Assembly (NCBI GenBank): GCA_026770705.1
Contig: JANJGN010000021.1
Span: 90,706,001-90,770,000, forward strand
Source of the DNA: Isurus oxyrinchus
Taxonomy: Eukaryota
Direction: 5' to 3'
DNA length: 64,000 nt
The translations under genes were made by a program, and so were the position numbers. Position 1 is the stretch's first letter; every line of letters starts with the position of its first letter. Below the pieces are notes generated by a model. The model had not been told where the DNA came from and searched no databases. It saw only the letters and a list, made by a program, of their open reading frames with translations. Positions 2,498-63,855 of the stretch are shown one piece after another.

Positions 2498-2524
2498 AAC
2501 TTGAAGAACTTAGGCAAAAGAACA
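2498..2524 (+). CDS. Microexon 1, 27 nt ((E)LEELRQKN)
   Basis: ttttttttctgtag|AACTTGAAGAACTTAGGCAAAAGAACA|gtacgt; phase 1. Confidence 0.85.
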
Positions 2525-2541
2525 GTACGTACAAATGTCAA

Positions 2542-2731
2542 GACAGCGCACTGTGACCATCCATACCAGCGCACCATGACAATCTGTACCAGCACATGGT
2601 GATGATGTGTAATACTATAATCTCACCATCTGTACCAGCACACAGTGTCTAGCTGTGCCAGCAAAACGTGACTATCTGTACCAGCACACCGTGTGTATAT
2701 GTACCAGCACACTGTGTCTATTTTTACCAGC
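2542..2731. repeat. 23-bp minisatellite (about atctgtaccagcacacyrtgwct), about 8 copies
   Basis: (a/g)ccagc anchor at 2565, 2588, 2634, 2657, 2680, 2703, 2726. Confidence 0.9.
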
Positions 2732-3069
2732 GTTTTACTTGATTATTTAAGCTTAAATTTAACACTGAGAAGTACTGAAACAGTGGCATGCTGCTTTGAG
2801 TTTAAATATGCTGTTCGCAATTTTTAGCATCTAACAAGAATGTTTCTAAAATTCACATCAACTTAAAAATGAAAGTAATAATATGGGTATCCTGTAAAAA
2901 AAAAAGGCGAATCAAATCAAAAGAAGCTTGGATTTATATGGTATGTGTACTGAACTCATGAATTCTGAAATTATTTTACTGAGGGTGATGTATTGTTCAA
3001 ATGCAATCATTTTGATAAAGTAATAAATATATTCTTTGAATGGCAAGGTACTAGGAACAGCTCTGAGGC

Positions 3070-3290
3070 AATAATGGTATAGTGTTTGTTTTCATTATGC
3101 TGGTTCACAGGTAAGTTTTGGGCCGGCCCCTTGGGAGAATATTCGAAACATGCCTTGGGATCTTTCACATACACTTGCAAGAGCACACGTGGCCTCAGAT
3201 TAACGCTCTATCAGAAAGATAACGTTTCCAACAGTATATAATACCCTTGGTATGGCATTGGGCCATCGATCTGCACTAAAGGAGTACGAT
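3070..3290 (-). mobile_element. Degenerate Deu-domain SINE (SacSINE1-like)
   Basis: gccttgggatctttcacatacacttg...ggcctcagattaacgctctatcagaaagat resembles the reverse complement of the DeuSINE core (tttcggatgagacgttaaaccgaggcc...aaaagatcccatggc); recognised from memory. Confidence 0.55.
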
Positions 3291-5899
3291 CTAAATGTTA
3301 ATGGCAGTTAATCGATTCAATCGGGTTAATATTAAACAACAACAGCAACAACAACAAATAACCCTCATTATAATAGTTGCTAACTTCATTGAAATATTGC
3401 GAAAGCACTCAGTTACTTTCTCATTTGCTGATCGATTATGTTCATGGGATATGAAACACGGGTTGAAATTCGTGCAAGCATGTTGGCGAGTGCACCAGCA
3501 TCGACTGCTAATGCCAAGGAGATAAGAGTGGCCTGGAGATCTAAAATTGTGTGTTGTCAACAAATTAACTTTTCGCAGGAATGGGTTCTGTCCTAATTCT
3601 TGAGCCGAATAAGGACAGAGTCACTGATTTTGGTGCTACCTGATGCAGAGACAAGAGTTGGCAACATTTTCTAAACATTTGCCTAACCTGAAATTAGTCC
3701 AGCCATTTTAACAGTGTCGACTACAGCAGTAATCCCTATAGATTATATTCTTCTGTAATGGGGACTGTAGTCATCAGCTGCGACCAACCTTCCAGGCTCA
3801 CCTAAGGATTCAAGGAGCAGATGAGCAGCCTGCAGTACATATGCCAGATTGAAGATCTTGGGCTCGTCCACAATTTAACAACACTTGTTGGATATTCATC
3901 TCGAGGCTGTAAGAGAAAGGGTGGAAACCTTCTCCTCAACAAAACCCAAGAAATGTCCCTTCTGCCTTACCAAGCTATCATGGATGCAGTTTGGAGAGGA
4001 GATTATCAACCTCCTGACCAGCCATTTTTTTTCTAAATGCAATGCCTAAAAACACCCTTAGCCCGGGTGTGCCCCTCCTATCGTCCTCCTATTTGGGCCC
4101 TCCATTTGCAAATTTGGTATTTTGATGTACATCAGCTAATGAGCTGACAAACCACATAGGGGTGTGTGGCTGAAGAATGAGCAGTTAGTTTCGGTTTCAT
4201 GGTGTTATTTTCTCAACAGAGAATGCGGTCTGCTGGCCAAAGCTCTGCGATCATCATAAATGTTGTGCTAGACTTTCTAGGAAATCCAACATCGTTTCTC
4301 CATCTGCTTGTAGGGGACTTTGGCACATAACAATAAGGAGAGGTCTGTGGCCGTTGGCATTCAATCAATGATGCTGGCAAAGGACGAGACATTTGGACTA
4401 ACTGCAACTCAGGGGTTTTAGTTTGCAGTTAGTGAGAATGATTCGATGAGCAAGCGAATGAGCAAGCATTATGCTTGTGTGCCAACCGCAGCAGTTCCGG
4501 ATTTATGCCTCAGCTATGGTTTAGATGAGGAGATATGAAGCACCTAACTACAAAACATTGTGTTCTCTCCTGCAGGACTCAGAACTTAAGTTGTTCAAGC
4601 TGCTGCAGCAATCGCAAACCTGCAGTCCACGAAGGAGCAAGTGAAAAATCAGTGATTCACAGAGAGTGCAAGCATCGCATTATTTCCCTGTAAAATCCAC
4701 GAGTGCATTAGCTTTTACATCAGTTGGAATGTATTTTGCGAGTCGGTTCAATGTCAGAAGCTGTTCAGTACATCGCAGACTGGCCAGGGCAGCTGAGAGA
4801 AATTTTGTCAATCGAAGCAATTGGCAGATGTTGGGTTGTGGAAGGCCAAGTTCATGCTGTAATCTAGCTGTTTGCAGGTCTCTGGAGTCGACAACATTTA
4901 AGCTGCTTGAGTTGCAGTGAGATGTAAAGGAATCTAGTAGAATTGCCAGCATTTGCAGCCATGTACAGTCGATAGCCAAGAACAACCAGACTGCGAATGC
5001 TGCCCTGCCTCGGACGCGTGCACACACGTCTTCCTGCATCTTGAGAGTAGCGACCCCCATGAAGAATAGAATCTGGCAGAGCACCCATTAGGCGCAGAAC
5101 CACATCGCCATGTATTTCATCACTTTGTCAATTAGCTCAAAGCAGGTGTGATAAGGCGAGAAGGAGACGAGTTGTATTGATAGGCCACAAGGTCCATGGC
5201 CTTCTCACATCATCAGGCGGGTATGGGTCACCGTCGCAATGGATTATGAAAGTCTTCCTGCCGCTTGGAAGGTCTTCTGTCAGGGCTGTCCCTTTTTTAA
5301 AAGTAGCTAATCAGCCCCACAAGCAATTGCCCCATGCTACATCACCAAAATGAAAGAGGAGACAAATGCACTGGTTCTGTTTACGATCATCTTAAGAGGA
5401 CCCTCTAGGATTCAGGCAGCTCGAAGGTGATCGGTAATTTCATTCAAGTTCCCAGGCAATCAGCAGGCTTCCTCCACTTTATCTGGAGTGCAAGTTTCGT
5501 ATGTCGTTTGAGCACACATAAGTAGATTAAGGGGAGCACCTGAGGCAATGGGTGCTCAAGCCTATTATCACAATGCACTTGTTAAATCCTGAACGAATAG
5601 TCTGAATAAACCCATTCCATAGAAACTTTCATTAGTCGTCTATCTACATTGTGTTTACTTGCCAGGTGTCACCTGCATCCTTGTTCTCTCAATGTGCTGC
5701 GAACGTTGCGGTAGACTGCCCCCACAGCTTAGCTACTGCAGCTGGAGAGCCTAGATGCCAAGCAATGGACCGCTACATAAAAGGCGTGACAGCTGTTCGG
5801 AACTATGTTAAGTCTTTAATGTGCTCGCATTGAAAGGGCAAAGTAGGTACTTGACCTTGCGGTGTATAATATGGTTTACAGCCTCCATTCTACATCTCT

Positions 5900-6800
5900 C
5901 AATACCCCTCATCTCTGCTTCAACAGATCTCTCATCTTGAGCACCTACTCAACAGATTCCTCCACCTTCTCTCTCTTGGATAAGAAGCAGCGACCAATAA
6001 TTTATTGCTTATGAAAGGCTTTGCAGTGCAACGTTGTGCACAGTATAGAACTCTAAAGTATAGGAAAGATTGTTGCTGGAGTATACTGAAAGATTTCACC
6101 AGGTAGATTGATGCATCTGAATTGCATCCTCAGATACCCAATGGCATACTCAATTGTCACATGGGTAGAACTGTGTCCATATCCTTTACTGCAGTTCGAT
6201 GGTTTCTTGGAGACTTTAGTAGACATATGTTTTGTGAGTTCTCCTCCAGAATCCATCCCGTGTAGCACCTAAGCTGCTAAGATTTGTGGCATGAGGAACT
6301 GTCAGAAATTCTGGGCGCATTGCTGCACACCGAAAATGGGGCACACGCCTGAAAAAAGGGCTTATGATGGCGAAATTCCATTGTCACACTGATGGAAGGA
6401 CAACATATCCTGATCTGGAACATCGTTGGTAGGTCAGTGGGCGCATTGATTGTCACATGATTTATGTCGATGACACATTGCACCTTGGGAAATCTAGCGA
6501 TGCACCTCATGCTGTCCTATCCATCTGCCTATCTAGGTCTTTTAAGTAGTGAAAATAATCGCCAGTTCTCTTGATCAGGATATTCGCCACTTGCTTAATG
6601 AAGTGACAGTTTTCTACCTGGGAAATCGTACAATATCTCCAGGTCTCAGTGGCAATGAACAAATGCAATACATATTAAATGCTAATGTGATTTTCAGTGC
6701 CATGAACACAGAGCCTCCGCCACTTCCCATGGTATGAACTCACCATTTATTGTATCATACATACTACTCCGCATTCAACCAGCTAAAATTTCACCCTGTC
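5900..6800 (-). mobile_element. PIF/Harbinger transposase (HARBI1-like DDE) remnant
   Basis: ORF 6277..6510 IARFPKVQCVIDINHVTINAP resembles IAGFPxVxGAIDCTHVxIxAP; ORF 6053..6268 HSSTHVTIEYAIGYLRMQFRCI...YTP resembles HxxTRxxIExxIGxLKxRFRCL. Frameshifted. Confidence 0.85.
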
Positions 6801-7499
6801 CCTTGAAGATTCTGCATCAGCCGATACAGCTCACGCCTTTGAAAGTGTCCGACTAACTGTTGCGCTTCCCGCTCTTTCAAACCTCTCCAGGCTTACTGGC
6901 AATGGTGTACGTTCCCCACTCTTTCCTGTGTGGCCAAAGGGCACTCTCACAATGACTGAGTACCAGCGACCGCATTGAGGCATCGCCTCCTTGGCGCTGG
7001 TTTTACCCACTGTGTCCTGAATCATTATTCAGAAAGTTTTATGAATGCACGTCGAAATGGAAGTGCAGTTGGAACAAGTCAAATTTATTTTAGGAAAAAA
7101 AATCCTGTTTGACGAATGCATTGCTGTTTTTGTTTTGTATTGAGGATGCGACCGGTAGAATAGACAAAGTGAAACCTGTAGCTGCAGTACATCTGTATTT
7201 CTGAAAGGTATTCGATAACTTGCCACATGCACTTGGGGACGGGGGTGCAGTTGGGGTGGTGGTACTTGTAGCATACCAAAGACACAATTTTCGTTAGTGC
7301 ACAGCAAGCAAATTTTCCATAAACAAGTAATTTTCAAGTTAGAAGATTGTGAGCAGTGGGTTGCTGCAATGAACAGTGCCAGGCCATAAGCTGTTATAAT
7401 CTATGTTAATGACTTAGATAAAGGGACGTAAACAAATTTTTAGAGGATTGATGATTTTTTTTAAAAAAAAACTAGATGGAATGGTAAGCTGTGGAGAAC

Positions 7500-8840
7500 C
7501 TGCAAGAATATATCTACTTGGACTTCAAGAAGGCCTTTGACAAGGTGCCGCACAAGAGGCTGCTCAGAAACATAAGAGCCCACGAAGTTAGAGGCAATTT
7601 ACTAGCATGGATAGAAGATTGACTGTCTGGCAGGAGACAGAGAGTGGGGATAAGGGGGTTTTTCTCAGGGTGGCGGCCGGTGACTAGTGGAATTCCGCAG
7701 GGGTCAGTGTTGGGACCACAGTTTTTCACTTTGCACATAATGATCTGGATGAAGGAACTGAGTGCCTCCTGACTAAGTTTGCAGATGATACAAAGATAGC
7801 TGGAGGGACAGGTAGTGTTGAGGAGGCGGGTAGAATGGTTTGATGAGGAGAAAGGGCAAAGAAGTGGCAGATAGAATAGAATGTGGGGAAGTGTGAGGTC
7901 ATGTACTTTGGTAGGAAGAATAGAGGTATAGATTATTTTCTAAATGGGAAGGGAATTCAGAAATCTGGAGTGCAAAGGGACTTGGGAGTCGTAGTCCATG
8001 ATTCTCTTAAGGTTAATCTGCAGGTTGAGTCGGTATTTAGGAAGGCAAATGCAATGTTGGCAATTATTTCGACAGGAGTAGAATATAAAAGCAGGGATGT
8101 GCTGCTGAGGATTTATAATGCTCTGGTCAGACCACATTTAGAATATTGTGAGCAATTTTGGGCCCTGTATCTCAGGAAGGATGTGCTGACCCTGGAGAGG
8201 TTTCAGAGAAGGTTCACGAGAAAGTTCCCAGGAATGAAAGGCTTAACATATGAGGAACGTTTGAGGACTCTGGGTCTGTACTCGATGGAGTATAGAAGGA
8301 TGAGGGGGGATCTGATTGAAACTTACAGAATACTGAAAGACCTGGATGCTGTGGACGTGTGGAAGATGTTTCGATTAGTAGGAGAGACTAGGACCCGAGG
8401 GCACAGTCTCAGAGAAAAGGATAATTGTGACTTTTTCAAAATAGCCCTCAAATAATAAGAACAAGTAATCCTTGGCAAACAAAAAATGCGCAATGGAAAA
8501 TAATGTCTCCAATAAATTGGAAATGTAACAACATGAGAATAATCCTTGGAACAATCCATTTAACACATGAGCTATAAAACTGCAGAACATGGCTATTCCT
8601 TTTAGAACAGAGTTGAGGAGAAACTTCTTTACCAGAGAGTGGTGAATCGCTGGAAAACATTGCCACAGAAGGCTGTGGAGCCCAGGTCATTGAGTGTATT
8701 TAAGACCGAGATAGATTGGTTCTTGATTGGTAACGGGATCAAAGGTTATGGGGAGAAGACAAGAGAATGGGGTTGAGAAACTTATCAGCCAAGACTGAAT
8801 GGTGGAGCTGACTCGATAGGCCGAATGGCATAATTTCTGT
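7500..8840 (+). mobile_element. CR1 LINE, 3' part of ORF2 (RT) and 3' UTR, relatively young
   Basis: YLDFKKAFDKVPH, SGIPQGSVLGP and FADDTK motifs; ORF 7883..8455 (KCEVMYFG...LVRPHLEYC...RRMRGDLIETY); ends in a tatggtctta tail; carries a 178-bp insert at 8421-8598. Confidence 0.95.
8421..8598 (-). repeat. Inverted copy of 11006-11183 inserted in the CR1
   Basis: Reverse complement matches 11006-11183 over 178 nt with 8 mismatches by manual alignment. Confidence 0.95.
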
Positions 8841-8849
8841 TCCTTTGTC

Positions 8850-9680
8850 TTATGGTCTTATTAAGAGTGTGCACAACAAGATGTCAGATGTTAGATATCG
8901 ACGGGTGAAGATATTTATTTTGGGTGCAAGAACGGAAAAAAAAATTCAAGGCCTAAAACATGTAAGGGTTGATCGTCAGGCAGTCTTGTGAACCTGGATA
9001 CAAGGGATGCCAGTTTTGCAAGCAATTGGGAAGGAAAATGACATGTTGACATTTATTGTAAGGGAATTCGAGTACAAGAATAAGAATGTCTTGCTAAAAT
9101 TCTACAAGGCTTTGGTGCAATCATATATGCAATGCCTTGTTCTGTATTGTTCTCTGTGCTTAAATAGAGAGATACTTGTGTTGAAGGCGATAAAGTGGAG
9201 GATCACTGATTTAGTCCTTGTGATGAGGGCTTTGCACTTTGATGAGAACCTGAATGAACCTGCCCTATATTCACTGGGTTATAGAGCAATATGAGGCAAT
9301 CTCGTTGAAACGTTGAAAATTCTGTGGCGTTTAGATAAGATTTACCCTGAGGTTTCCAATGGCTGGGGTATCTAAAACACGGAAGCAAAGTGCTGGAATC
9401 AGGGTTTCATCATTTAGGCTTGATGTGAGGAAAAATGTCTTCACTCAAAGGATTTAATTTTTGGAATTATGTACCCCAGAGAGTTGTAAATGTTTCATCG
9501 TTGACTAATTTTAAGGCTGACACAGAACGGTATTTGCAAATCTTAGCGAATCCAGGGATATGGCAGCGGGCGTAGTAATGCAGTCCAAGTCAAAGATCAC
9601 CCATTATCGTATTGAATGGCAAAGCATGCTTGCAGGGCCATATAGTAAACTCCTCGTCATATGCCATGAGTGCTTATGTT
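8850..9680 (+). mobile_element. Older CR1 3' fragment
   Basis: ORF 9007..9294 EFEYKNKNVLLKFYKALV...LYSLGYR is a decayed CR1 ORF2 C-terminus, followed by CR1-like 3' UTR. Confidence 0.85.
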
Positions 9681-10215
9681 TTTTTCGAATTCCTTTCATC
9701 CCCTTGCACTGTTGGTTAAATTAAAATGACGTTGTTAATCATATTCACCTCCTTGCAGTTTGACCAATACTTTTTTCTCAGCGACGCCATTTGATGCATG
9801 ATAGTGACAATACCAGCGTCCATCTTTGCTGCTGACTGAAAGAGGTTCTAGGCAGGCACAGCTATTCCAGACCTTCCCCTGCCGCGGCCTTGCCCGCACC
9901 CCCACGATGAGCTGCCGCTCCCTATCCCACTTCTCGAGGCCTCATACCATTAGCTTTCTAGTTCATGAGGCTCTTCCCAGTTAGCTGCTTTTAAGGGATA
10001 ACATTGCAGGGAGCTATTTATGCCCTTAAAACTCTGAATTAAACAGCCAGGGAATGGAAGAATGTGCTGGGGACTGGGGGAAAAGCGACGCACAAAATAC
10101 TTCCGAGCAAGCTTGTAGTTACGAAGAGTTAAATAATCCCTTAGTGGAGGTTGAACACATGTATTTTTAACAAAATTTGTAATTCACTGAATGAATCCGA
10201 TTTTTTCCTTCACAG

Positions 10216-10236
10216 GTAAATCGGCGCAGCATTGTG
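10216..10236 (+). CDS. Microexon 2, 21 nt ((S)KSAQHC)
   Basis: ttttttccttcacag|GTAAATCGGCGCAGCATTGTG|gtaagt; phase 1. Confidence 0.85.
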
Positions 10237-10357
10237 GTAAGTTAATTTAAGCCTGGATGCATATTTTAAACAGTTTACAGAGATTAATTCGCCTGCTTGT
10301 ACTTTATTAAATGCAATGTGGTTTTATGGTTTTAATGAATCATTCTACTTCTTTCAG

Positions 10358-10384
10358 GTAAAGAGCTAAATGCTAGCAAAGAAG
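10358..10384 (+). CDS. Microexon 3, 27 nt ((G)KELNASKE), GC donor
   Basis: ttctacttctttcag|GTAAAGAGCTAAATGCTAGCAAAGAAG|gcacgt; an alternative GT donor 4 nt downstream would shift the frame. Confidence 0.7.
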
Positions 10385-11005
10385 GCACGTAAATAAAACG
10401 TTGTATATGTGAATACAGGCCTTTTTCGAGAATAAATAGTACAGTGATTTATCAGGCAAAGCCAATCATTGTAAGGGATGCAGACGACACAGAAGATAAC
10501 GAATGGATCAAAGGCTTGCTGAAATAGGATACCTACTTAAAAATGACAATGAAGCAATGAAATACAGCACACACTAATTAGTCTTCCTTCTGTCCCTCAC
10601 AATGAAAATTGGACAATATTTTCGGCTTGCTCTGCCCATAAACACAAGATTGGCAAACGTGTATAATGAAGACTACATATTTTCTAGTAAAAATGAATCA
10701 TATTTTTGTAAAGTGAATGACAAGAAATTTCATGGCCAGCCTTTTATGAAAACAACTATAGTTTTCTCCCCCACTCGAACCTGCTAATTGTTCATTATCT
10801 CTATAGTATTCAATTCGTCTAAAAAAAAACAAATATGTCACACTTGAACAGTTTTATTGTCTTTAAGTAAGTTCCTCTTAAGTAGGTTGGGAGAATTTTA
10901 TCGACATGTTCTATTTAGATTTTGAAGACATGTTTTGACATTCTACGCACACGGTTTTTATTTGAGCTCAAAGTTGTGAATAAGAAACTACCTCAAACGG
11001 GGCAC

Positions 11006-11183
11006 GAATAGCCATGTTCTGCAGTTTTATAACTCATGTGTTAAATGGATTGTTCCGAGGATTAGTCTCATGTCATTACATTTCCAATTTATTGAAGACA
11101 TTATTTTCCATCGCGCATTTTTTGTTTGCCAAGGATTACTTGTTCTTATCATTTGAGGGCTATTTTGAAAAAGTCACAATTAT
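11006..11183 (+). repeat. Probable source copy of the 178-bp inverted duplication
   Basis: Matches the reverse complement of 8421-8598; the near-identical ORFs 8375..8590(-) and 11014..11262(+) reflect this. Confidence 0.95.
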
Positions 11184-11546
11184 TCTTTGTTCACTTCTTT
11201 TTCTGGATGTAGGATTTAACTCAAGCAAAGGACATGTTCTTCAAAATGTGGAAACTTTCTGAGCCATCTGGTACTTTCTAGTCATAAGTACTGCTGAAGG
11301 AAAGCAGGCAACCGTCTGATAACATAATGAAGCTTCCGTACTAATGGAGGAGACCAAGCTTTACCTTGTTATTCAGTTGCATGTCTGCATAAATTTGTGT
11401 GAATCAATTGCATTGAACTAGAATTCCAAATTTGAAACATATTTCAGCAATACATATTGCTTAACATGAATTTGAAATGAGTTAGAGATAAATTTAGTCA
11501 AGAATAAAATTTATAATAAAATGTTTATTTTTTTCTGTTTATTCAG

Positions 11547-11582
11547 AACTGGACTCTCTCAAAAGAGCTCTAAGGAATGCAA
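11547..11582 (+). CDS. Microexon 4, 36 nt ((E)LDSLKRALRNA)
   Basis: tttttttctgtttattcag|AACTGGAC...GAATGCAA|gtaagg; phase 1. Confidence 0.88.
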
Positions 11583-12369
11583 GTAAGGAGGCCTAATTAA
11601 ATGGCCTAATTAGATTCTTTATAATCTGATTGAGACGAGACGACAGAAACAGTTTTAATTCCCCAGTATGCGCTGATCATGTTCTTGACAATGGACTTGT
11701 AGGATTTAATTTCTCAGAAGGCTCTGTGTGAGACCACAAAATGTTATTATTGAGGTGATTGAAATTCAAAGGGTATACGATGCCAGTATCTCGTTGTAAT
11801 GAAAAAAAGTGACTCACGCTTCAATAATTCCGACCTATAAAGTTGCTAACAATCCTCGAAACAAACGCGATGCCTCATCAGTCACTGTTTTCACAAGGAT
11901 CATTAACGTCGACGCAGTGATTAGCAGATAAGAGCTTACTTCCAATGTTGGGCGACTCCTGAGCTCATCCTGCCTATTGTCCAACATCCACTAAAAGTCC
12001 ACTGCTCTCCAAATGATATCGGTTTTCCATCGCCCCTTCTTGTTGAAAGAAATGCAGACGGCTAAACGTAGCTTGCTATTTAAATTGGGTGAAATTGTTG
12101 ATTCGGTTTCGCCTGTTCGCCCAAAACACTTCGAATGATCTTGCACCTGACAGTACATTTCTGTGGGGTCCCCCCAAGAAATCCCGGGGTCACCACTGCT
12201 GAACAGCTCAGTCGTGATCAGATGGTGCTTGACGGCAGTCTGTATGAGTGCTTCAATCTCTCTGCAGGTACTGGTATCGTGATGTCAAATATTTAAAATC
12301 TTTTTTTTAGTATTTACAGAAAGAGAGTTAACAATTCAAGTTATGTTTAGCACAGATATCTGAAAAGTT

Positions 12370-12710
12370 AAAAGCAAAATACTACGACTGCTGGAACTCT
12401 GAAACAAGAATATAAAATGCTGGGAAACTCAGCAGACCTAACAGCATATCTGGAGAGAATAACAGTTAACTTTTCGAGTCCTTTGACTCTTGATCAGAGC
12501 TAAGGAGAAGTAAAAATGTGATGGCAGCTATGCTTTTTAAGTGGGTGCAGCAGGTCAAGCCGGGTAGTGATAGCTGGGGGCAAAGGAGAGATTGACAAAG
12601 ATGTCATGAACAAAAGGATAAAGGGGGAATTAATGGTAGTAGTAAGGGCTAAATGAGTTGCTAATGGGGACATTGAGGTCAGAAAGCAGAATGTGGTAAT
12701 AGCAGGCCTT
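12370..12710 (-). mobile_element. Penelope-like element terminal fragment
   Basis: aaaatgctgggaaactcagcagacctaacagcatatctggagagaataacagttaacttttcgagtcc is the same motif found at 45860 next to a GIY-YIG coding remnant. Confidence 0.7.
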
Positions 12711-52000: not shown

Positions 52001-54030
52001 AACCCAATAACAAACATATCATATTTATATCATATTTATTATGTTTTATTTAAATCATTAGGTAGCAAGCTTATCCAAATATTATTGAGATGTAATCCTT
52101 AGTTAGGTTTGCAGTTTAACTGGCTACATACTATGTTTAATGCAATATTAATATCTCACCATTAACAATTTAATATACAGCTGCAGTCAAGAGAGTGCAG
52201 AAAACAAATCTGAAACCACCAACGAACTAACTGCATGAGTGAAAAAAATGACGGCATGCTCAGGTTACTCTGTATCTGATTCACTCACTTGGGCCATTCT
52301 CTTTGTTTATAATATACCAGTCAGAGCCTCTTCCCCCACTTCACTGAATTCCCTCATTTACCAAATCCCAGTGTGCATCACACAGCTTCTCTGTACTCAG
52401 GCAAAGATGCAGCTTCATGATGCTTACCTTGTCTATCACCTAAACTTCCTATATTAATAACGCTGCAATTCAACTGGCATGTAACAAATATTGTTGGCTC
52501 GGGATTCGGTTTTTCCTAGTTTCCTAATTAAATAGATGCAGCTGCCTCTCGGAAGTGAGCTTCATTATCACTGCACATGTCTGAAATAAACCACAATTCA
52601 CTGTTAGCATTAAGTTACATGTTAATTGCAAGCTTGACAATATATTCGAAGAGAACAGTTCAGAGCGTTTACTTCCCAAATTCCCAGCTGTCAGCACTCA
52701 GTCTTGCTGCACTTAGGCAAACTGCACCTTCGTAATACTTAGGCAAAAATGAATGGCCGGTAAAGAACACTGGGATAGAATTACAGTTAACAAAAATATG
52801 TATTCTATCAATCTTCTCTTGGGGTTGGCCTACTGTTCATTGAATGTGTCCAATTTGTTGTGGCAGCATCCACGTTTACAGGCATGTTATTGACTGGAAC
52901 ATTGAATGATAATAGTAGAGGTTCCAACAATCTTTTCATCACACTGCTAGCCACGAAACCCTTACCATTCCTAATACGTGTCAAGGGCTTGTGGTGAGCC
53001 ATTTTGCAGATTGACACCCTGTTAGTGCACGTTCTGAACGCATTATGCTTGGGCACTGGGCCCTTGACTGGGACAGTAACAGGAAGCTTCTATCAGAGTA
53101 AGTGATGTTATCCACTGCGCCACAAGACCCCATATGAGAAATTCTGCTGGCATTTAAATAGTAAGTGCGTAGCATGAGGGAAAGAGGGTAATTAACATTA
53201 AGCGGGAAATGCTGGAAGATGGAAGATGGAAAATGGAAGATCATGATGACAAAATATTGGAGGTGCAATGGATAGTACGAAAAATGAAAGGAAAGGTGCT
53301 CTTAAACAACTGGTTATACAATCATGGATAATCGACTTCATCCATCAGATACCCAAAACTTATTCAGAATCTGTATGAGTCTGTGGTTATGCTAAAAACC
53401 GATTATTGTTCCAACTTCTTGTCAGACGGATATGTATGTGCCATAGAGGGTTCAGTGGAGATTGACCAGAATGAGTCAGTTATGAGGAACTTTTGTTACA
53501 AAGATAGGCTGGGGAGCTGACGTTGCTCTCCTTAATTAGAAGTGGATTGAGTGGAGATTTGATCGAGGTGGACCAGCTGAATATGGATTTATAAAAATAT
53601 CGACAAATGACTTTTTTTGTGGTTGATGGCTAAATGGTTCATAGATACAGATTGAATCATTTGGGTATTGTGCACCATGAATAATGAAATATATCAGCAG
53701 AAAATGTCTCTTTACTCTAAGTGATAAAAGATCACTTGATGTTTTCAACTGACTACTTGTTCAGTTTATGTCAATGGCAAATATGATCAGTCTTATGCTG
53801 AGCAGCATCACTATTTTTGTTGGTTGTAATAATAATAAAACAGATTTTCTAATTTCCTGTCACTTTTATGTCCGCAAAGTGGCCTGTTGCATGCCATGTT
53901 CGGAATGTTTCAACATTGTTGCAAATTAGTCTTCATATGATTTTTGCAATCCATTGTTTTTATTATTGAAATTTTGAAATTTATATGGCATTGTTTCTGT
54001 GAAATCTACATGCACCCTTTCCTGTTATAG

Positions 54031-54057
54031 CAAAGAAACTGATCGAAAAGACTTTAG
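54031..54057 (+). CDS. Microexon 14, 27 nt ((T)KKLIEKTL)
   Basis: ccctttcctgttatag|CAAAGAAACTGATCGAAAAGACTTTAG|gtaacg; fills the fourth slot of the 36-27-27-27 module. Confidence 0.85.
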
Positions 54058-57000
54058 GTAACGCATCTCACTCAGTTTTAAGAATAATCTCCTGCTAAAT
54101 AGTAAACAAAAAACATAACATTTCGTTTTGCTAGAGGTTACAAGTGGCATAACAAAATGGAAATGAAAATCGAACGTGATGAGAAACTGACGATCAATCT
54201 GGCACCTCAATTTTTGTGCATATTTAAATAATGTTAAATATGTCGGTTGTTTCATAAATTAGGCAAAAATAATAATCCATCATTAATTAGATTTTAATTT
54301 CTCATTAAAATTTAATCTGACCTGAAATATATGCTTTGTGCGATATAAATCTCACTATACATATGTTAATTATTTTCAATTATAATTAATTAAATTCGGA
54401 ATTGTAATCTTTAGCCTTTCCAGAACAACAATTATTATATTCAGCAAATGTCTTCAAAATTTACCCTTTGACATCTCACTACACACTACTGTGGTCGCAG
54501 AAATGGGAACATGTTTCATTTTTCAATGGAAATTGGAAACTGTCATTTATGCATCTTCCATCCTTTCAATTCTATGTAAAATATATTGGTCATCCAGTGC
54601 TATTGGTAAGGAATCATCCGTCAAAGTGTCTTACATCCAACAGCCCATTCGTTTTTCTTTTCATAATACTATAGTGCAATTTTCAGAATGGCCATTTGGC
54701 TTCTCAACTGGTGATTTAACCAATTTTTACAAAAAATCATTTTAATAAGATCCAGCTCCGAAGAGTCATGTTGGGCTCGAAATGTTAACCTCCGTTCTCT
54801 CTCCATGGATGCTTCCAGACCTGCTGAATTTTTCCAGACTTTCCTATTTTCATTTTATAAGATCTGCCTCGTTTGGTTCATTAATTTTAATGGGAAAAAG
54901 GACGAAATCAGGGTTGCATTTCGTAAATCGTTCACGATGTCAACATGAAATGCAACATTGGCTGCATGTGCATGGTAACTTCCTTTCACATCTAAATATT
55001 ATTTTTCGAATATTGGTCCAATAATAACTAATACATCGCTCCTGGCAAAATAGATTCAAACATATTGTATCCTAACAGAAGCAAGTTGGGTGCCCACCCT
55101 ATATCATGTTGCATTGACTGTTTGCTACTGCACACAAGGAAATGCTACACGTGTTATATGATATTGCAATTATACAATGTGCTTAAAAATATGCAAAAGA
55201 AACTCGAAACAAATCAGTTTCTCAATGCATTCCTGCAAATATTTATATTGCATCTTCCTGTTAATTTTCTAATATGCAATAATTTATACTAAATCATTAA
55301 AACAAAACACAAATAAAATCAGCAAAGTGAAGGTTTCTTATTCCTTATGTTCTTTTAACTGAATTAAAGGTATTTCTATCCATAAACGTGGAAGAAATTT
55401 GTCCCCTAACTGCTCTCCACGGGCACGTCACAAGGTTGTAAAATCAAATGTTATATATAAACCACTTTAGGATGGTAAAACAACCAAGACACTGCTTATG
55501 AAGAATTAAAAACATATATGTTTAGAGTCGCATAAGGAGATATTAGAACATAGATACAAACAATGGCCAAATATTTAGGGTTTAAGAAACGTTTCCAATT
55601 AGCAAAAAAAAATTAGAAATCTAAAGAGCTCCAGCATCAGAATTTCAGAACATAGCGCTTGAAAGCTACATCCACGACTCCCATTGTTATAGCAAATTAA
55701 AAAAGGCTGGCCAATGTGCCCGAAATTGATGTGCAGAGGTAGCTCGTTGTTTTGCAGTCCTCCAACCGGGTCCACATTTAGGGAAAAGCACGAGGCTGGA
55801 GGGAATTAAAAAGAAGAATTTGAGTAAGTTGAATTGCCATTTAACTTAGAAAGAATGTCTGTCAAGAAGTGCATTGGTGCGGGGTTATTGGGAATTGGGG
55901 TATGCAGAGATATCGATGTCCTCAAGGTTTCTGGTGTTGCAGATGGGAGGCCTGATGCTCAGGTGCTGTAGCTGCCAAATATAGACATAACAAAAGCATG
56001 CATGAGGGTCCAGAAACGAACTGAGCCAAGCATGGAGTGTGCGAAAGTTATGGGACAGATTTTCACCAAATTCTGGCATGTTAATGTTTTAAGAAGACAA
56101 TCCTTTGTTAAATTTCAGCATCAATATTGCGACTGCTTAATTCAGCCTCAGGAAATTGCCATAGAAAGTTTTCATTTCCTTGTCCAGAACTGAAGATTGT
56201 GCCTTCGATCTTTCTAATTTTTAGTGAGATATTTAGCATGTATATGGGATGGACCAAGGAAAATATTTCAACTCAATAGGGGCACACATGAGGCACTGCG
56301 AGCCATCACCAGCAGAATGCGTTTATTAAATGAGAATTGCAAACCCATGGCCTCACATGACCCTCACTCTACCATTAAAATGAAGCCAGCAATCCAACAG
56401 TGGGTTTCAATGATAAGTGTGGCGGAGCATGCCAGGAGTAACACTGCGTATACCTAAACCTGAAGAGCTAATTGGTGAAGCATCAAACCCAACAAGAAGG
56501 CATGCAAATTTGCCCAATGAGCATGGTATCAGCAGTGCTAACTGAGCCTACGACCAACGGATCAGATCAAAGCTCTTCTGTTCTGTAACATCCTTTCATG
56601 GTGCACAATTAAACAACTAACAGAATGAGGTATCGTCAACAAACCCATCTTCAATATTGGTGGAACATGAGCACATTAGAGCTAAAATGTTGCTAAAATG
56701 TTTGGAAAAAATATTCAGCCTGATGTGACAAGTAACTGATCCATCTCGCCTCTTCAATTGGCCACATCGTTGCAAAAGGCTCTCGTAAGACAAATTTGTT
56801 CCAATGATATACAATAATGGCGAAGTGCACTGGATATCGCAAACCTTATGGGCCCACGCAGCACCCTGGCTGCAAAGCGGAAAACCGTGCTATTGGTTTA
56901 GCCTCGCTTTAAATCAAGCTATTGCAGTGGAGATCCAAGCATCGTCTGTCCACAGAAGAAAAAAAAAGATATTTTCGAGGCACTTGTGGCCGTATCAGAT

Positions 57001-57365
57001 GACAAAGTGCAAAGTGACGGGGCGCGTGGTCGACAATATTAAAAGGCTGTTCGGAATTCCAAATGTCGAGTTAGGAGGCCGCAGGAACTAGACAGCTCTT
57101 GACCTCATTGTGACCTTAATTAAAGCACGGAAAACATAACTGAATTCCAGAGTTGAGATAAGAGTGACTGCCATAACTTGAAATGAGCATCCGACCACTC
57201 ATGGCTTCAAGGAACCTTTTCAAATTATAGTCAATATGAATGAGTGGGAAAACTCTTCCCAGACTGGTGCCATACTGAACTGAAAGTGAATAGTTGAAAC
57301 TGTGCTTGCGATTCACAACGTGGCAGCAAAATACAAGATCATGTTGTTGGTACCTTTTCTTTCAG

Positions 57366-57401
57366 AAGTTGAAAGGCTGTCTGGGAAACTGCAGGAGTGT
57401 G
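57366..57401 (+). CDS. Microexon 15, 36 nt ((E)VERLSGKLQEC)
   Basis: ccttttctttcag|AAGTTGAA...GGAGTGTG|gtaagg. Confidence 0.9.
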
Positions 57402-57422
57402 GTAAGGAAATTGACCAAATCG

Positions 57423-57478
57423 GTGTATATGTGTATGTGCGTGTGTGTATGTATGTGTCCGTGTGTGTGTGTGTGTAT
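57423..57478. repeat. Imperfect (GT)n microsatellite
   Basis: gtgtatatgtgtatgtgcgtgtgt..., starting about 20 nt after the exon 15 donor. Confidence 0.9.
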
Positions 57479-58711
57479 GATCTATATCATATATTCACCG
57501 ATTATTTTTCAATAGTGCAAAAATATATTCGTCCTAATCCATTGAGGGAAAAACCTAAATTCATTTATTTCGACAAAAGAATTGAGAAAATGTAAGAATA
57601 TTAATGGTTCTTTTTAAACATATTCATCACGAAATAAAATTTCAGTTGTACCTCGTTTATAATTGTACTGCTTTGTGCAAGTATTGTAATGCACTGGGGC
57701 TCCATTCTAATAGGTTAATGCAGTTGACTAATTCACGATCCAATTCATATTCATGACTTGATGACACATCAATTGTACATTGAAGTTAATTTTTATTTAC
57801 TTAATCTGATATCATTGGCTTCATTTTGGAAGACAGATTTATGTAGCGTAGCCCTGCAATTAATCAATGCTTAGTAAAGAAATGAGAAGGGATTGACCTC
57901 ATGTGTCGGTCACAAAGTCTCCACTTTTTAGCCATTCAATTCCATTTTTAACAATCGAACAGGTCAGTTACCACGCACAAAATTCCCGGCTCTCTACCTT
58001 TATATTATTTCACTGCTCAGGACGTGTTTAAGGGCTAAAAAGAATTTTAAAAATTCAAAAAGAGAAAGATTTCGAAGTACAGGACCTGTGTTGAGAATCT
58101 AAGTCTTAAGAATTAGAGACCATTATTTCCATTTCCCCACTGACAAAACTAGAATATCCCAAAAATACATTATAGCAGAGTTATCACTTTTCAAAGTGCA
58201 CAGCTACTGGAAACTAGCAGGTCTATAATTCGAAAACCACAACTAAATCAGAGATAAGAAAATATTTATTTTTATTGTTATTATGCTGATTCGTGGAAAT
58301 GTAGTGACAGTTGAACTACCTTGCTCTTCTTTTTTCAAAACCGTGCTATGGAAATCTTATATTCACTAATGGGAACAAACAGTCCCGCAGCTGAATTGAT
58401 TGGTAGAAAGGCAAAATCTGTGACATTAAGACAGGAGGGTCCAATTTGGCTTATGACCTTATGTGCACGCCATTTTGGTTCAGAGCTCAGTGGGCAATAA
58501 CTGTACCAAAACTATACAAGTGGCTGAACTATTAGAATTGTCGCTATTGTTAAACAAGCGAGTATTAACATCAAACAAACATAGAAGATGATTCAATCAT
58601 AGTATTGAAAAAAGAGACTTAAACAGGTAGTAAAAACGTGCCGTCGGACAATGCAGCTTGATACTTCTTTGCTAAAATGCCTGTAATTCTGCAGCTGTTC
58701 TGATTCCACAG

Positions 58712-58738
58712 AAAATCTTCTAGAGCAGAAAACGAGAG
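58712..58738 (+). CDS. Microexon 16, 27 nt ((E)NLLEQKTR)
   Basis: tgttctgattccacag|AAAATCTTCTAGAGCAGAAAACGAGAG|gtaagg. Confidence 0.88.
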
Positions 58739-58804
58739 GTAAGGTCATACGTGAGGCATTGCTTCGTGATACTGAGGTTGTTTTTCTTATTTAATCTGCA
58801 TAAG

Positions 58805-59260
58805 GATATAAGAACAACAATTAAAAATGTTTAACTCCTTCGGCCCATCAACACTACGCCACTATTCAATCGATCGTGTTGGATCTGATTGTGGTCTTAA
58901 GTCCTCATTCCTGCCTTACCACCACCCCCAGCCTCCACGGCCTTGACTCCCCAGTAGATCAATATTCTCTCTAACTCAGCCTTGAAAGGCTCAATGACAC
59001 ATTGCCTGGAATAGATAATTGAAAAATGCTAATGGTGCCCTGAGGGAACACATTCCTCCTCATCTCCATCCTAAATAGGAGAAATTTTATTCTGAAATGG
59101 CCCGCTCTACCTCTGGGTTGCCCAAAAAGGGGAGGGGCCCCTCAACGTTTAACCTGTTAAGGCCTCTCAGGACTGTATATGTTCCGATAAGTTCATCACT
59201 ATGTCTTCTAAATTTCTGTCTAATCTGCTTAATATTTCTCATAAGACAATCCCTTATACT
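58805..59260 (-). mobile_element. CR1 3' end
   Basis: Reverse-complement similarity to the CR1 3' UTR at 8600-8840 (cattcctcctcatctccatcctaaat..., ctctctaactcagccttgaa). Confidence 0.75.
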
Positions 59261-59279
59261 CTGCATCTAATACATATGT

Positions 59280-59965
59280 TCATTGTAATTGCAACAGGAG
59301 TGGTCTTCTCCACTGACAGGTTGCTGCTGGCAAGCCAAAAGACTTTCTGCCTACAGCAGATATTTGTGAAGCATATATGCTTTAGGGGCTGAGTGATACC
59401 TGGTATGTAGGCTGCACGTCCCAAGGACTGGGGGTTGCTATCCAACAGCATGTCGCTTTGGTTTTCAGCAAAGTGCTGACTATACTCAACCTGCAAGTGC
59501 TTGAAAAATCCAACATTAGTTGTGATTCAGCAATTTGACAGCACTTGGTAAACTATCCTGATTGTGCTCGGAATTACATTGAGAAGCAATTTAGGATTAT
59601 CAGTTGGACTCGCAGTGTGGCACACTAATATGTGCTTGAAGATATATATATTCAGACACAGAGCCCTGTCCTTTTCAAGATAAATTACATGTCCACGCAT
59701 TGTTTCTTTTTCATGGGAAACAGCCATGCCCTGCCCATTCACCATGGCAATGACTTAAGTAATCAGAGTTTACCTTTCTGGTTTTAATTGGAACAACAGC
59801 CGTTAAATGTTCCCTGATACATTCTCCATGGCAAAGCCTTTACTAATCAAAGTCGACTTGCTAACCATGCAGTGTAAATTGATATTTCTTTTGAGATTCG
59901 ATATTCTTGTGAATCTGTCCTGAAGAGTGTGAGATGAAAAGATTTGGCAGCATGTCTATTTTCCA
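59280..59965 (+). mobile_element. Penelope-like GIY-YIG and terminal fragment
   Basis: Colinear with 19040-19780 (ccactgacaggttgctgc...gatacctggtatgtaggctgcacgtcccaaggactgg...ctgtcctgaagagtg). Confidence 0.8.
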
Positions 59966-60222
59966 GTAATAGATAAGAACAAAATTATGTGTAGTATCGC
60001 CTGCATTGCCTCTGCAATAACATCTATAGTTGTAACAAGAGGTCCCTGTACTCCATCCGTCTTTAAACAAGGGCCAACTTTCAATTACCTGCCTAATTAT
60101 TTGCATTAATTGAATGCGTTTTCCCCCGTGACCCATAAAGAATCACCCACAATGTGTATCTACATATATATGATGACTTCAAAAGAGTAAAGTAATATTC
60201 CAACGGTTATTATTTTGTTTAG

Positions 60223-60249
60223 AACTTGCAGGACATAAGAAAGATGATG
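60223..60249 (+). CDS. Microexon 17, 27 nt ((E)LAGHKKDD)
   Basis: ttattattttgtttag|AACTTGCAGGACATAAGAAAGATGATG|gtgagt; paralogous to exon 6. Confidence 0.88.
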
Positions 60250-60481
60250 GTGAGTAATAGGAGAATAGGTAACTCAGGGTAATTTGCAAAGAAAAAAAGT
60301 TTGCTCGAGTTAATTAGGATCCGCCAAATATGGAAATGTTCTATTTTAAATTTATAATTCCCTACTGTGACTAAACAGGACAGGAGAAAATGACTGAATG
60401 TATTTAATCCCAAAATTCAAACAATATATCAGTATGCCACTTCGTCCACTCAGTAGCTTTTTTGACAAATATATATGTGTA

Positions 60482-60483
<2 letters not shown>

Positions 60484-60532
<49 letters not shown>

Positions 60533-60544
60533 GCGTGTGTGTGT
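60484..60544. repeat. (GT)n microsatellite
   Basis: About 30 GT units with two GC interruptions. Confidence 0.95.
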
Positions 60545-61149
60545 CTATTGATGTGTCTGTGCATGTTGATGTTACATTGTGTTGTTTCCTATTAGTAGTG
60601 TTTTCAAATCTCCCTCCTTACCATAGCTAGCATATCCCTTCATGTATATTTTCAATGGATTGAATAAGAGTTGAGTACCATTTGAGAATAAGTGGTGAGA
60701 AATGCTGAGAAACACTGTTGAGAAATTCATCAGTCACACATTTGAGCAAAAAAGTATTTAAATTAAATGATTGAACGTTGGGTACATAGTGATAAAGGCA
60801 ATCACAGAATGAATAAAACTGAAATATATCAAGTTGTCTGAGTGAGAAATGAGCAATAGAAGATTTTCACCTTTAGAGCCACACATAGTGAAAAACAATT
60901 CAAATACATGGAATTGTAAAAGATGTAAGCAGCATGATAGCATATATATCAATGATCATTTTCTGGAGTCTTTGTAAAACAATTTTTGGACCATATAAAA
61001 TTAGATGAATAGTAGAAAGAAGGGAATAGCAACTAGAAATACCTCCGATAGGGTATTATAACTCGGAAGGAAGATGGCCATTGACGTATCAAATTTGGAG
61101 TCAATCAGTTCCAAAATTCACTGTAACTTTTTTCCAAACTTTGCCAAAT

Positions 61150-62875
61150 GCAGAAAATGTCTTCAGAGGAAAGGCAAGAACTGCATAAGACAAAAAATCA
61201 GAATTTGATCAAGAGTGGATTGATGGTGTTCTGACAAAATTGAAGTCAATGGGAACCATGGGAATTGCCTTCAATATTTGATGTCATGTCATGCACTAAC
61301 GAATGCTGTCATGTTTGAAGGAGGCCAATAATCTCAGACCAATGGCATCACTGTCGGTTTTCTCATGGTACTGACAGAAATACTTAATCACTTGCTTTGT
61401 GAATGACCTGCCCTCAAACATAATGTCAGGAGAGCTTGATTATTGCAGTGTGCAGTTCTATTTGGAATTTCTCAGACATGTATTATTTGGAGCCGGCGAG
61501 GTACATGTCCGGGTTATTGTTCAGGCATGGGCAGTTACGCACCACAAAACTATCAGGCAAAGACTACTTTCGACAAGAAACAAAAAAACCATCTCTCATT
61601 TACTTTCATAGGCATTAAATTCGCTGGATATCATTAAAAAAAACTCAGAACATATATATGGGAGCAAGAGTACAACACCTGTATTCGGTTCCATTATTTA
61701 GTAAGATTATGACGGACAATCAAGTTGAACTGCACTTATCCATCCAGTCACCATGTCCATTGTTTCCCTGAGAGGCTGAACATCTGACTTTCTCAACATT
61801 AAATATGTCCAAGGATGGGTCATTCGCAACCTCATTGAGCACCAAATTCCAAAAATTCACAATCCTTTCACAGAAGACTTCTACTTATTTCAGTGTCGAC
61901 GAGGCTGCACTCCAGTGTTCTATGTTCCTCAGCTAGGGCAGCAACTCTAAATCTGTACCCTGTCAAACCACTTTAGAATTATACAGATTTAGCTTAAATT
62001 AGCCCTCATTCTTATACGTTGCAGTATTTATAGATTCAATTCGTTAAAACGCACGTCATAGGACAACTCTCAATCCAGGAATTAATCTAGTGAACAAGTA
62101 AGGGACCGCCTCGAATGCAATTATCCCTTCCCTGATATGGGAATTTTACGTGCTTTCTCACCAGGGCCCGTTGCATGTGCAGCAGGACTTCTTCATTCTA
62201 GTAGTCGTATAGCCTGTTCAACATTCTGCAGACTGGTGGGAACCATTGGCTAAAATATCAAATGAACTAGCCATATAAGCATTGTTCCTGCAGGTCAGAG
62301 GTTGGGAGTGTCATAGATTCCCCAAGGCGCTTCTAACTCATTGTCCGATTCCCCAAGGCGCTTCTAACGTTAAAAATGTACAATTCAGTAGTTTGACTGA
62401 AGAATTTACATGTGTCTCAATGAGTGTAGCTAAAACAAAATCATAAAACTCTATACATTGCGAGACAAAACAGTTCATTCACTATCTTAAATATTCACTC
62501 CCTCTACTGTCAGTGCAAAGTGACAGCAGTGCACATTATCTACAAGGTTCACTACAGTAACTTTTCAGTCTTACTTCGATAGCAACTTCAAAACCCACGC
62601 TCTCTCCAATCTATAGGAGTCCAAGAGAAGAATACTACAATGGCAAGTTCCCGTGCAAGTCACACACATAACAAACTGTAACCTTATCATCACTTCAATT
62701 TCATTAGGCTGGGATCCTGGAACACGCTTCTGAACAACACTTTGTACGTGTCTACACCAAAGTTATTGCAGAAGTGCCAGAAGGCTTCTCATCACTATGT
62801 TCTCAAGGGCAGTTAGCGTTGTGCAATAAATCCTGGCCTTTCCAGCGACGCTTGCATCCCAAGAATGAATTGAAC
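61150..62875 (+). mobile_element. Degraded CR1/L2-group LINE split by an antisense CR1 3' fragment (about 61650-62180)
   Basis: Ends ...ttctcaagggcagttagcgttgtgcaataaatcctggcc...catcccaagaatgaat, like 25914-25985. Confidence 0.7.
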
Positions 62876-63828
62876 ACGTCCAAGCAGATTGCTTTTAGGC
62901 TGCAGCAACAAGGATGCACAGTAAACGTCTGCGGTGCTATTATCCTTTGGAAACTTTAAAGGAGCTCATGTTAGCCGGTGCAGATCGAAACAGTGGTGAG
63001 GGTACCTCACAGAATTAAAAAGCATATCGAGGAAAGCTGCTACTTTACCATTAAACGTTTAATTGTGGTTCATTAGACGAATAGTATCAGGCCACATACT
63101 TTGGAACTTTGAAAAATCAATTCTGAAAACAATGTTTTAAAAATTTAGTAGAAAATATCAACTTCTAAACAGTTGTTTGGCGCGTTAGTAGTGAAAGGGG
63201 AATAAAGCTGCTAAATGCTGAATTGAATTGATCATGCAAAAGGAAAACTCAGCAGGTTTCAGATTTAAGGTTTTCTTCAGGATTTTAGCATTGACAACAT
63301 TGTGTGTTTTTCTATTGAGTTAGGATGTTGTCTTGGAGATGTCACAAAGCAGTTGGGGTTACAAATTACTTTCTACGGACCCCGGTTTCTTCTCTATTCT
63401 TTGTGATTTCTATTGTGTGGAATTAATTGATCTGATTGATAACTAATGGATAACTTATTGGGAAAAATAGTTTTAAATTGGCTGTTTACTTCCCTGTCCG
63501 ATTATTAAAAATGCAACTTAAGAAGTGACTGTTTTTGACTGTAGGGGAATGTTAATCAACCATCACCTTCCAGTGGGTGGACATTCCCACATAGCTAAGC
63601 AAGGATAAAGACGGCAATTTAGCAAAGTTATGAAAATAATTTAAGTCACTGCACCATGCATTAAAGATGTGCCAGACTGTATGCCAAATTAAATAAGAAT
63701 AATATTAAATAATAGGTCAATACATGGTGGCATTTCAGGCCAAATTAAGGCTACAGAACTTGGTCATCAAGTAAGAGTAATAGCATAAAATTTATAGTTC
63801 GATGTTATTTTCTTCTTTACTCATTCAG

Positions 63829-63855
63829 ACTCAATGATACGTGAAACTAAGATCG
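63829..63855 (+). CDS. Microexon 18, 27 nt ((D)SMIRETKI)
   Basis: ttttcttctttactcattcag|ACTCAATGATACGTGAAACTAAGATCG|gtaatc; shares GATACGTGA with exon 7. Confidence 0.85.

What the first reader, a model, noticed from the sequence alone, without database searches (positions are those of the whole stretch)
2498..63855. Any subset of the microexons can be spliced in frame: a possible combinatorial length-tuning system
Seen: every exon is 3n long, phase 1, and ends in G or A, so a junction codon can never be a stop (stops begin with T); most junctions give E or D. Inference: skipping could generate many rod lengths. At 3.6 residues per turn a 9-aa exon is 2.5 turns and flips the helical face, whereas 9+9 (18 aa, 5 turns) or 12+9 (21 aa, 3 heptads) keeps register, so skipping should occur in specific pairs if a coiled coil is under selection.
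Basis: inference. Interest (0 to 1): 0.7.

Follow-up and report, generated by a model that had tools for sequence, protein, structure and literature searches.

The report
Shark microexon coiled-coil rod gene
The window holds 20 real, tiny exons from the middle of a large shark gene that is predicted to spell a long coiled-coil rod; any of them can be skipped without breaking the reading frame, but that is likely a by-product of growth by exon duplication rather than a length-tuning system.

Summary
Observation confirmed: 20 phase-1 exons (13x27, 5x36, 21, 18 nt), all ending G/A; 190 of 190 possible junction codons are sense. They lie in a ~1.6-Mb tandem array of ~380 such exons ending in a B30.2/SPRY exon, and follow a catshark protein exon by exon. 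The window's own unit (~81 microexons) keeps an intact, selected rod (dN/dS 0.31) but its B30.2 exon is decayed. But the full chain is already register-tuned (period 3.50; 0 of 5000 exon shuffles match), only 0.1-1.2% of subsets keep register, and 6 of 7 microexon-sized deletions in relatives' annotated isoforms are single-exon-sized, none 12+9. Register-neutral pairs appear as duplication units, not as shown splice choices. Stop-free junctions follow from the donor consensus. No RNA test was possible. This scan has found the family before on other DNA (53 notes) and once rejected the same idea.

The parts
2498..2524 (+). 27-nt phase-1 exon (LEELRQKN)
   Evidence: zero-gap match to catshark protein 526-533
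10216..10236 (+). 21-nt phase-1 exon (KSAQHC), likely linker
   Evidence: catshark 535-540
10358..10384 (+). 27-nt exon, GC donor (KELNASKE)
   Evidence: GC donor also in the paralogous exon
11547..11582 (+). 36-nt exon (LDSLKRALRNA)
23938..23964 (+). 27-nt exon, GC donor (DDLKIKQA)
24099..24125 (+). 27-nt exon (LDKHVQSD)
30285..30311 (+). 27-nt exon (DKIREVQL)
31367..31402 (+). 36-nt exon (RQKIEAIHRNI)
33059..33085 (+). 27-nt exon (EIMRRQDS)
37328..37345 (+). 18-nt exon (TSVDP), likely proline linker; no counterpart in the catshark or ray proteins
   Evidence: trained score 13.4
37978..38013 (+). 36-nt exon (LEKLRTRLQEA)
   Evidence: like-placed segment in the ray protein
38994..39020 (+). 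27-nt exon with weak donor (LEASRKDA), missed by the generic scan
   Evidence: trained score 15.7; like-placed segment in the ray protein
45446..45481 (+). 36-nt exon (ARKMKKALQDL); its homologue is absent alone from ray isoform models X4 and X7
47064..47090 (+). 27-nt exon (DKLREKES), tandem NAGNAG acceptor
47243..47269 (+). 27-nt exon (VLDGCSNE), likely linker; 24 nt in the paralogous copy
54031..54057 (+). 27-nt exon (KKLIEKTL)
   Evidence: the chain chose a weaker candidate here
57366..57401 (+). 36-nt exon (VERLSGKLQEC), tandem NAGNAG acceptor
58712..58738 (+). 27-nt exon (NLLEQKTR)
60223..60249 (+). 27-nt exon (LAGHKKDD)
63829..63855 (+). 27-nt exon (SMIRETKI)
1..64000 (+). The whole window is the middle of one gene unit. 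Its other parts lie outside: likely start exon (132 nt, M-x-AP-x-DEYINIG) at G000:C21:90,416,484; decayed B30.2 exon at 90,827,979; intact B30.2 exon of the sister unit at 91,348,264

Best explanation
The 20 exons are frame-neutral, phase-1 pieces of a shark gene that are likely spliced mostly in fixed order into a predicted heptad coiled-coil rod, and their free skippability is likely a by-product of how the gene grew. Shown: exon identity, order conserved with a catshark protein, heptad period across exon joints, tandem duplication of exons and of whole gene units, a decayed B30.2 exon after this unit and an intact one after the sister unit. Inferred: duplication of phase-1 exons, often in register-friendly pairs (12+9, 12+6 aa), set rod length over evolutionary time; donors ending in G (consensus) make every junction codon start with G or A; the weak, tiny exons are occasionally skipped singly and survive because the frame holds. 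The product of the window's unit is likely a cytosolic rod of at least 800 aa that has lost its B30.2 head, while the sister gene's rod would dimerise and carry a B30.2 binding head, as the heptad exons of butyrophilins and chicken BG do.
For: Sister-unit exons chain onto catshark XP_038671249.1 with 56 of 70 joints at zero gap; the window block gives 28 of 40 against 9 of 33 on the minus-strand control. Window chain period 3.50; its power is reached by 0 of 5000 exon-order shuffles and by 2.2% of 5000 random 1-3-exon skips. Window block vs sister block: dN 0.22, dS 0.71 over 235 codons in 27 exon pairs. 33 of 33 consecutive 36-nt exons at 89.88-89.95 Mb are each followed by an 18-nt exon, period 3.61; 12+9 duplicates at 89.82 and 90.37 Mb. 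72% of 348 exons start AA, AG or GA, so the native joint alone selects against a final T. Annotated isoform deletions are single-exon-sized in 6 of 7 cases. Unit structure: 132-nt Met exon three times, preceded in the two intact units by a 63-nt exon with a stop in the downstream frame; two decayed B30.2 copies at 61% identity.
Against: Skipping does occur in relatives' models (9 isoform models in a ray), so the chain is not strictly constitutive, and models give no frequencies. Register discipline is loose: two recent single-exon duplications (12 aa, 95% identical; 9 aa, 92%), only 8 of 36 orthologue/paralogue indels at 0 or 4 mod 7 (confounded by missed exons), and about 28% of 96 native joints are off register. 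The 132-nt exons are open from their acceptors and the upstream unit (170 exons) has no terminal exon that I could find, so read-through into one giant gene is not excluded. Long coiled-coil/B30.2 proteins of bony fish begin with signal-like peptides (read by eye), which does not fit a cytosolic product if the units are fused.
Confidence: 0.6

Rival explanations
1. Regulated length tuning: neighbouring exons are skipped in register-keeping pairs (12+9, 9+9) to give rods of many lengths.
For: All 190 junctions are sense; 18- and 21-aa skips keep phase in about half of the larger set (46% of 39, 53% of 36) against 10% of 67 single 9-aa skips; pairs are duplication units; a flounder coiled-coil/B30.2 model has a 21-aa deletion (homology of its rod to this gene not shown); an Atlas cluster is named after an isoform X51 (a lead only).
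Against: 0 of 7 microexon-sized deletions in shark and ray models is 12+9, 6 are single-exon-sized; the full chain scores better than 97.8% of random skip patterns; paired exons are often kilobases apart (introns 121-12,355 nt) with no coupling element seen.
Confidence: 0.12
2. The tandem units are fused: one ~1.6-Mb transcript skips the decayed B30.2 exons and encodes a ~3,700-aa rod with a single B30.2 head, possibly secreted; length would vary by alternative starts and ends rather than by microexon subsets.
Against: Each intact unit has its own untranslated 63-nt exon and Met exon; the decayed exon after the window keeps a strong acceptor (score 8.4) and has AATAAA/ATTAAA sites behind it; the ray model ends without B30.2; no signal exon stood out and a bony-fish N-terminal profile gave no significant hit.
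Confidence: 0.22
3. The window's unit is a pseudogene that died with its B30.2 exon.
For: Its B30.2 exon has many stops and gaps; a small decayed unit lies right behind it.
Against: 0 stops in 81 exons, dN/dS 0.31; at 0.1 substitutions per site of neutral decay 0 of 3000 simulations keep all 20 exons intact (only intact exons are detectable, but the homologous set is nearly complete).
Confidence: 0.06

Closest known systems
Chicken BG genes and the soluble BG-tail 'zipper protein' (PMC5938342, PMC4046983; passages read)
   Same: Coiled coil spelled by many tiny exons with a split first codon (21 nt, some 18 or 24); exon number varies between tandem genes (13-36); alternative splicing in the tail.
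   Different: BG has a signal, an Ig-V and a membrane segment; exons are one heptad each, so single skips keep register; reported splicing is largely intron read-through. Here exons are 27/36 nt, 81-170 per unit, and no Ig or membrane exon was found.
Butyrophilins, e.g. BTN3A (PMC6790196; passages read)
   Same: Very short heptad exons followed by a B30.2 last exon; transcripts missing one heptad exon are reported.
   Different: A few heptad exons, with Ig domains and a membrane segment; here about a hundred exons and, in the window's unit, a decayed B30.2.
TRIM proteins with B30.2
   Same: Coiled coil plus PRY-SPRY; the same contig arm holds most of the 150 scored SPRY matches and RING/B-box exons.
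   Different: No RING or B-box exon on + in the stretches scanned in front of the units; the rod is far longer.
Schistosome micro-exon genes (PMC8293314, a review; passages read)
   Different: Unrelated sequence; here a long-range heptad register penalises most subsets.
Database entries of this family: XP_038671249.1, XP_043533988/9, XP_069775418-28, XP_038672306-10
   Same: Orthologues or paralogues in catsharks, bamboo sharks and an electric ray.
   Different: Held as fragments under generic names (A33-like, butyrophilin-like, golgin-like, TRIM39-like); the catshark model's first Met falls inside a microexon.

Membership tests
Butyrophilin / BG | Extracellular Ig-V (and Ig-C) exon | tested here: not met
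   No Ig Pfam match among 136 + strand ORFs of 105 aa or more over 464 kb or 113 ORFs of 62 aa or more upstream of the first unit. The stretch in front of the window's own Met exon (90.39-90.416 Mb) was covered only by the exon scans, not by Pfam; ORFs across locus borders were not scanned.
Butyrophilin / BG | Transmembrane exon | tested here: inconclusive
   A strict hydrophobicity scan of three intervals found none; the interval in front of the window's Met exon was not in it, but that exon follows an untranslated exon.
Butyrophilin / BG | Coiled coil encoded by tiny phase-1 exons | tested here: met
Butyrophilin / TRIM | C-terminal B30.2 (PRY-SPRY) | tested here: inconclusive
   Met for the sister units (SPRY E 3e-11 and 2.6e-13); decayed in the window's unit; read-through untested.
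TRIM | RING and B-box | tested here: not met
   None; none in the catshark orthologue.
Micro-exon gene with combinatorial splicing (MEG-like) | Short symmetric exons, any subset in frame | tested here: met
   190 of 190 junctions sense
Micro-exon gene with combinatorial splicing (MEG-like) | Abundant multi-exon skipping in transcripts | not testable with these tools
   Only contigs were offered and 27-36-nt exons gave no joints; relatives' models show mostly single events.
Two-stranded heptad coiled coil | 3.5-residue hydrophobic period continuous across exons | tested here: met
   Period 3.50; 72% of 96 native joints within 60 degrees. Oligomer state not tested by this row.

The most novel reading that the evidence does not exclude
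Three tandem genes have fused, by skipping their dead B30.2 exons, into one 1.6-Mb transcript of 380 or more exons that encodes a ~3,700-aa rod (about half a micrometre) with one B30.2 head, and sharks tune its length by alternative starts, ends and register-neutral 18- and 21-aa exon modules: a splicing-set molecular ruler with more exons than titin (363, recalled).
Probability: 0.1. Interest if true: 0.85.

Novelty: new variant of a known kind. Interest (0 to 1): 0.42.

Why it matters
The family is an extreme version of the butyrophilin/BG design that databases hold only as misnamed fragments, and I found no paper on it (searches returned none; others returned none on it by title and abstract start). 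Because its exons are 9 and 12 aa rather than 7, it separates frame-neutral from structure-neutral skipping, which makes it a clean test of whether frame-preserving skipping is functional or tolerated noise. If the units are fused it would be among the most exon-rich genes known. The specific claim of combinatorial length tuning is not shown and present evidence leans against it.

Tried and rejected
RNA: no RNA holder listed on record (nine rows hold the last exon in part, RNA status guessed for three). Laying four RNA-guess contig sets on window 45300-57420 was swamped by repeats and listed no exon-exon joint: no information on expression or skipping. Dimer model of catshark residues 504-727: no verdict. 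Pfam on long + strand ORFs near the window: no domain. V-set search of the genome listed no match on this contig among 150 of 3319 candidates scored: too shallow to use. Search for a longer database form of the catshark protein: none at E<=1e-20, weak. Signal-peptide exon scans gave none under strict settings and scattered candidates under loose ones; a resemblance of the first unit's LKIPTIDP exon to bony-fish N-termini was not confirmed by a profile. My early reading of one continuous 1.6-Mb gene was demoted after the decayed B30.2 copies and repeated Met exons turned up. Period 3.6 for the window: rejected, it holds only for the 36+18 array. Dropped from the isoform count: the ray's 23-aa difference (not microexon-like), its 5' and 3' variants X8 and X9, a loach 5' variant, and three flounder deletions (6, 21, 71 aa; told separately). 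Supplementary files of the papers were not read.

Full report
Setting. The window is G000:C21:90,706,001-90,770,000 of a 4.98-Gb genome. It is a shark by inference: the array's last exon is 65% identical to a catshark protein. I read about 2 Mb around it; 100 kb between 89.98 and 90.18 Mb was not held.

Observation. Twenty AG..GT/GC exons of 18-36 nt lie on + between 2498 and 63855. All are 3n, free of stops only in the phase-1 frame (0 of 20 with a stop, against 10 and 12 in the other frames) and end in G (17) or A (3). All 190 possible forward junctions are sense codons, 137 of them E or D. A length-blind scan shows the excess only at 3n lengths and only on +. The G/A ending needs no special cause: G is the donor consensus (recalled), 20 exons without a final T has probability 0.12-0.36, and since 72% of the array's exons begin AA, AG or GA a final T would make a stop at the ordinary joint. 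Array-wide only 2 of 379 exons end in T, but the trained scan favours G/A ends, so I do not count that as evidence.

What the exons belong to. A model trained on 65 exons matched to the catshark protein finds 348 exons on + against 9 on - between 89.76 and 91.35 Mb, 379 after homology rescue and hand-added validated exons. The array ends in an intact B30.2/SPRY exon at 91,348,264, inside a contig arm crowded with SPRY genes. Exons at 91.10-91.34 Mb chain onto catshark XP_038671249.1 with 56 of 70 joints at zero gap; the window block is a paralogous copy of residues 505-726 (28 of 40 zero-gap joints, control 9 of 33), with 16 of the 20 window exons placed in that chain. The array is a row of tandem units. 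A 132-nt exon starting M-x-AP-x-DEYINIG occurs at 90.416, 90.920 and, decayed, 90.858 Mb; the two intact copies follow a 63-nt exon with a stop in the downstream frame (read from the alignment), so the Met is likely a start. Two decayed B30.2 copies (61% identity, nhmmer E 2.6e-24 and 1.1e-18) lie at 90.828 and 90.891 Mb. The window's unit has 81 microexons (770 aa), the downstream sister 125 (1,198 aa) plus B30.2, the upstream unit 170 with no last exon found. The window unit aligns to sister residues 390-1162 at 50% and is under purifying selection (dN/dS 0.31), although its B30.2 exon stops after 17 codons.

Register. The 36-nt exons carry hydrophobic residues at codons 2, 5, 9 (84, 93, 66% of 116), the 27-nt exons mostly at codon 4 (65% of 157). 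The window chain peaks at period 3.50, the catshark rod at 3.52. Exon order matters: 0 of 5000 order shuffles and 2.2% of 5000 random 1-3-exon skips reach the native power. In the window block a single 9-aa skip shifts phase by 173 degrees (0 of 11 within 60), 18 aa by -17 (6 of 8), 21 aa by -21 (4 of 6), native 15 (8 of 11); joints with proline or a weak signal were left out. It also means that most subsets would break the coil: 306 of 262,144 keep the heptad, 3,252 with stutters.

Does skipping follow the register? RNA could not be tested (see Tried and rejected). RefSeq isoform models of relatives give a small indirect test; I saw only their proteins and inferred exon identity from homology. 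Electric ray, X1-X9: deletions of 8, 8, 11 and 12 aa, the 11-aa one at the homologue of window exon 45446, and only X7 combines two events. Bamboo shark X1 vs X2: 9 aa. Catshark homologue of the short upstream gene: 9 aa, and 18 aa in a proline-containing N-terminal repeat. That is 6 single-exon-sized of 7, none 12+9. A flounder protein of like architecture shows 6, 21 and 71 aa. At the DNA level, pairs are real units: 33 of 33 consecutive 36-nt exons at 89.88-89.95 Mb each carry an 18-nt partner 308-409 nt behind, giving period 3.61, and 12+9 duplicates occur at two further places. Against a strict rule stand two recent single-exon duplications and 8 of 36 indels between orthologues and paralogues at 0 or 4 mod 7, no more than the 2 in 7 expected (overlapping comparisons, missed exons and linkers confound it).

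Mechanism. Most likely (0.6) the rod is spliced mainly in full; symmetric phase is the footprint of exon duplication, length was tuned by duplication over evolution, and single skips are tolerated leakage. Rivals: fusion of the units into one giant transcript (0.22), regulated paired skipping (0.12), pseudogene (0.06). Function is inferred from relatives: a dimerising spacer for a B30.2 head in the sister gene, a headless rod in the window's unit, comparable to the BG zipper protein (PMC4046983, passages).

Known systems. It works like the heptad-exon tails of chicken BG (PMC5938342, PMC4046983) and butyrophilins (PMC6790196), passages read, but no Ig or RING/B-box exon was found, so I do not file it in those families. 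Paper searches for the shark family found nothing (listings only in 77, 79, 80, 113). This scan's notes hold 53 findings with these words in at least 12 genomes (8 shown) and one earlier rejection of the same idea; these are unchecked AI notes, not support.

Verdict. Real feature, new variant of a known design; the combinatorial tuning claim is partly supported in geometry, unsupported as biology. Interest 0.42.

Noticed in passing
G000:C21:90,827,979-90,828,997 and 90,890,830-90,891,389 (L006, L013): Two decayed B30.2 exons, the first with a kept acceptor and a partial second copy behind it, bracket a small decayed gene unit with its own decayed Met exon (about 90,857,900).
   Followed up: yes
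G000:C21:89,881,519-89,947,800: Array of 33 recent 36+18-nt exon pairs giving an 18/5 (period 3.61) rod inside an otherwise heptad protein; many of the 18-nt exons have A-rich acceptors without a pyrimidine tract.
   Followed up: yes
L102:7718 and L102:8264: One contig of run X1 (depth 2, RNA status a guess, only 30 letters on the exon side) joins a non-consensus donor in the last intron to the B30.2 acceptor, with an in-frame ATG just before: possibly a B30.2-only transcript, possibly noise. Contigs of 4 of 4 runs cover parts of that exon.
   Followed up: partly
G000:C21:89,808,788/89,813,749 and 90,647,111/90,649,565: Recent tandem duplications of single exons (95% and 92% identical DNA); candidates for mutually exclusive use.
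   Followed up: partly
G000:C21:90,416,484 and 90,920,219: The Met exon carries a conserved DEYINIG tyrosine motif resembling SH2-binding sites (resemblance recalled, untested).
   Followed up: no
G000:C21:89,648,400-89,651,300 and 89,765,300-89,767,800: Three collinear low-copy conserved elements upstream of the short gene and of the first long unit; likely promoter or first exons, one near a signal-like ORF start.
   Followed up: partly
G000:C34:2.7-7.5 Mb: Five next-closest B30.2 exons spaced about 1 Mb apart, likely more giant genes of this family.
   Followed up: no
G000:C21:82-118 Mb: Very large SPRY/TRIM gene cluster holding most of the 150 scored SPRY matches, with a near-identical tandem run at 112.49-112.55 Mb.
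   Followed up: no
window 47064 and 57366: Tandem NAGNAG acceptors (57 of 379 exons in the array) could shift length by one residue.
   Followed up: partly
window 2544-2731 and 1477-1719: 23-bp and 49-bp minisatellites, the first starting 20 nt after the first exon's donor.
   Followed up: no
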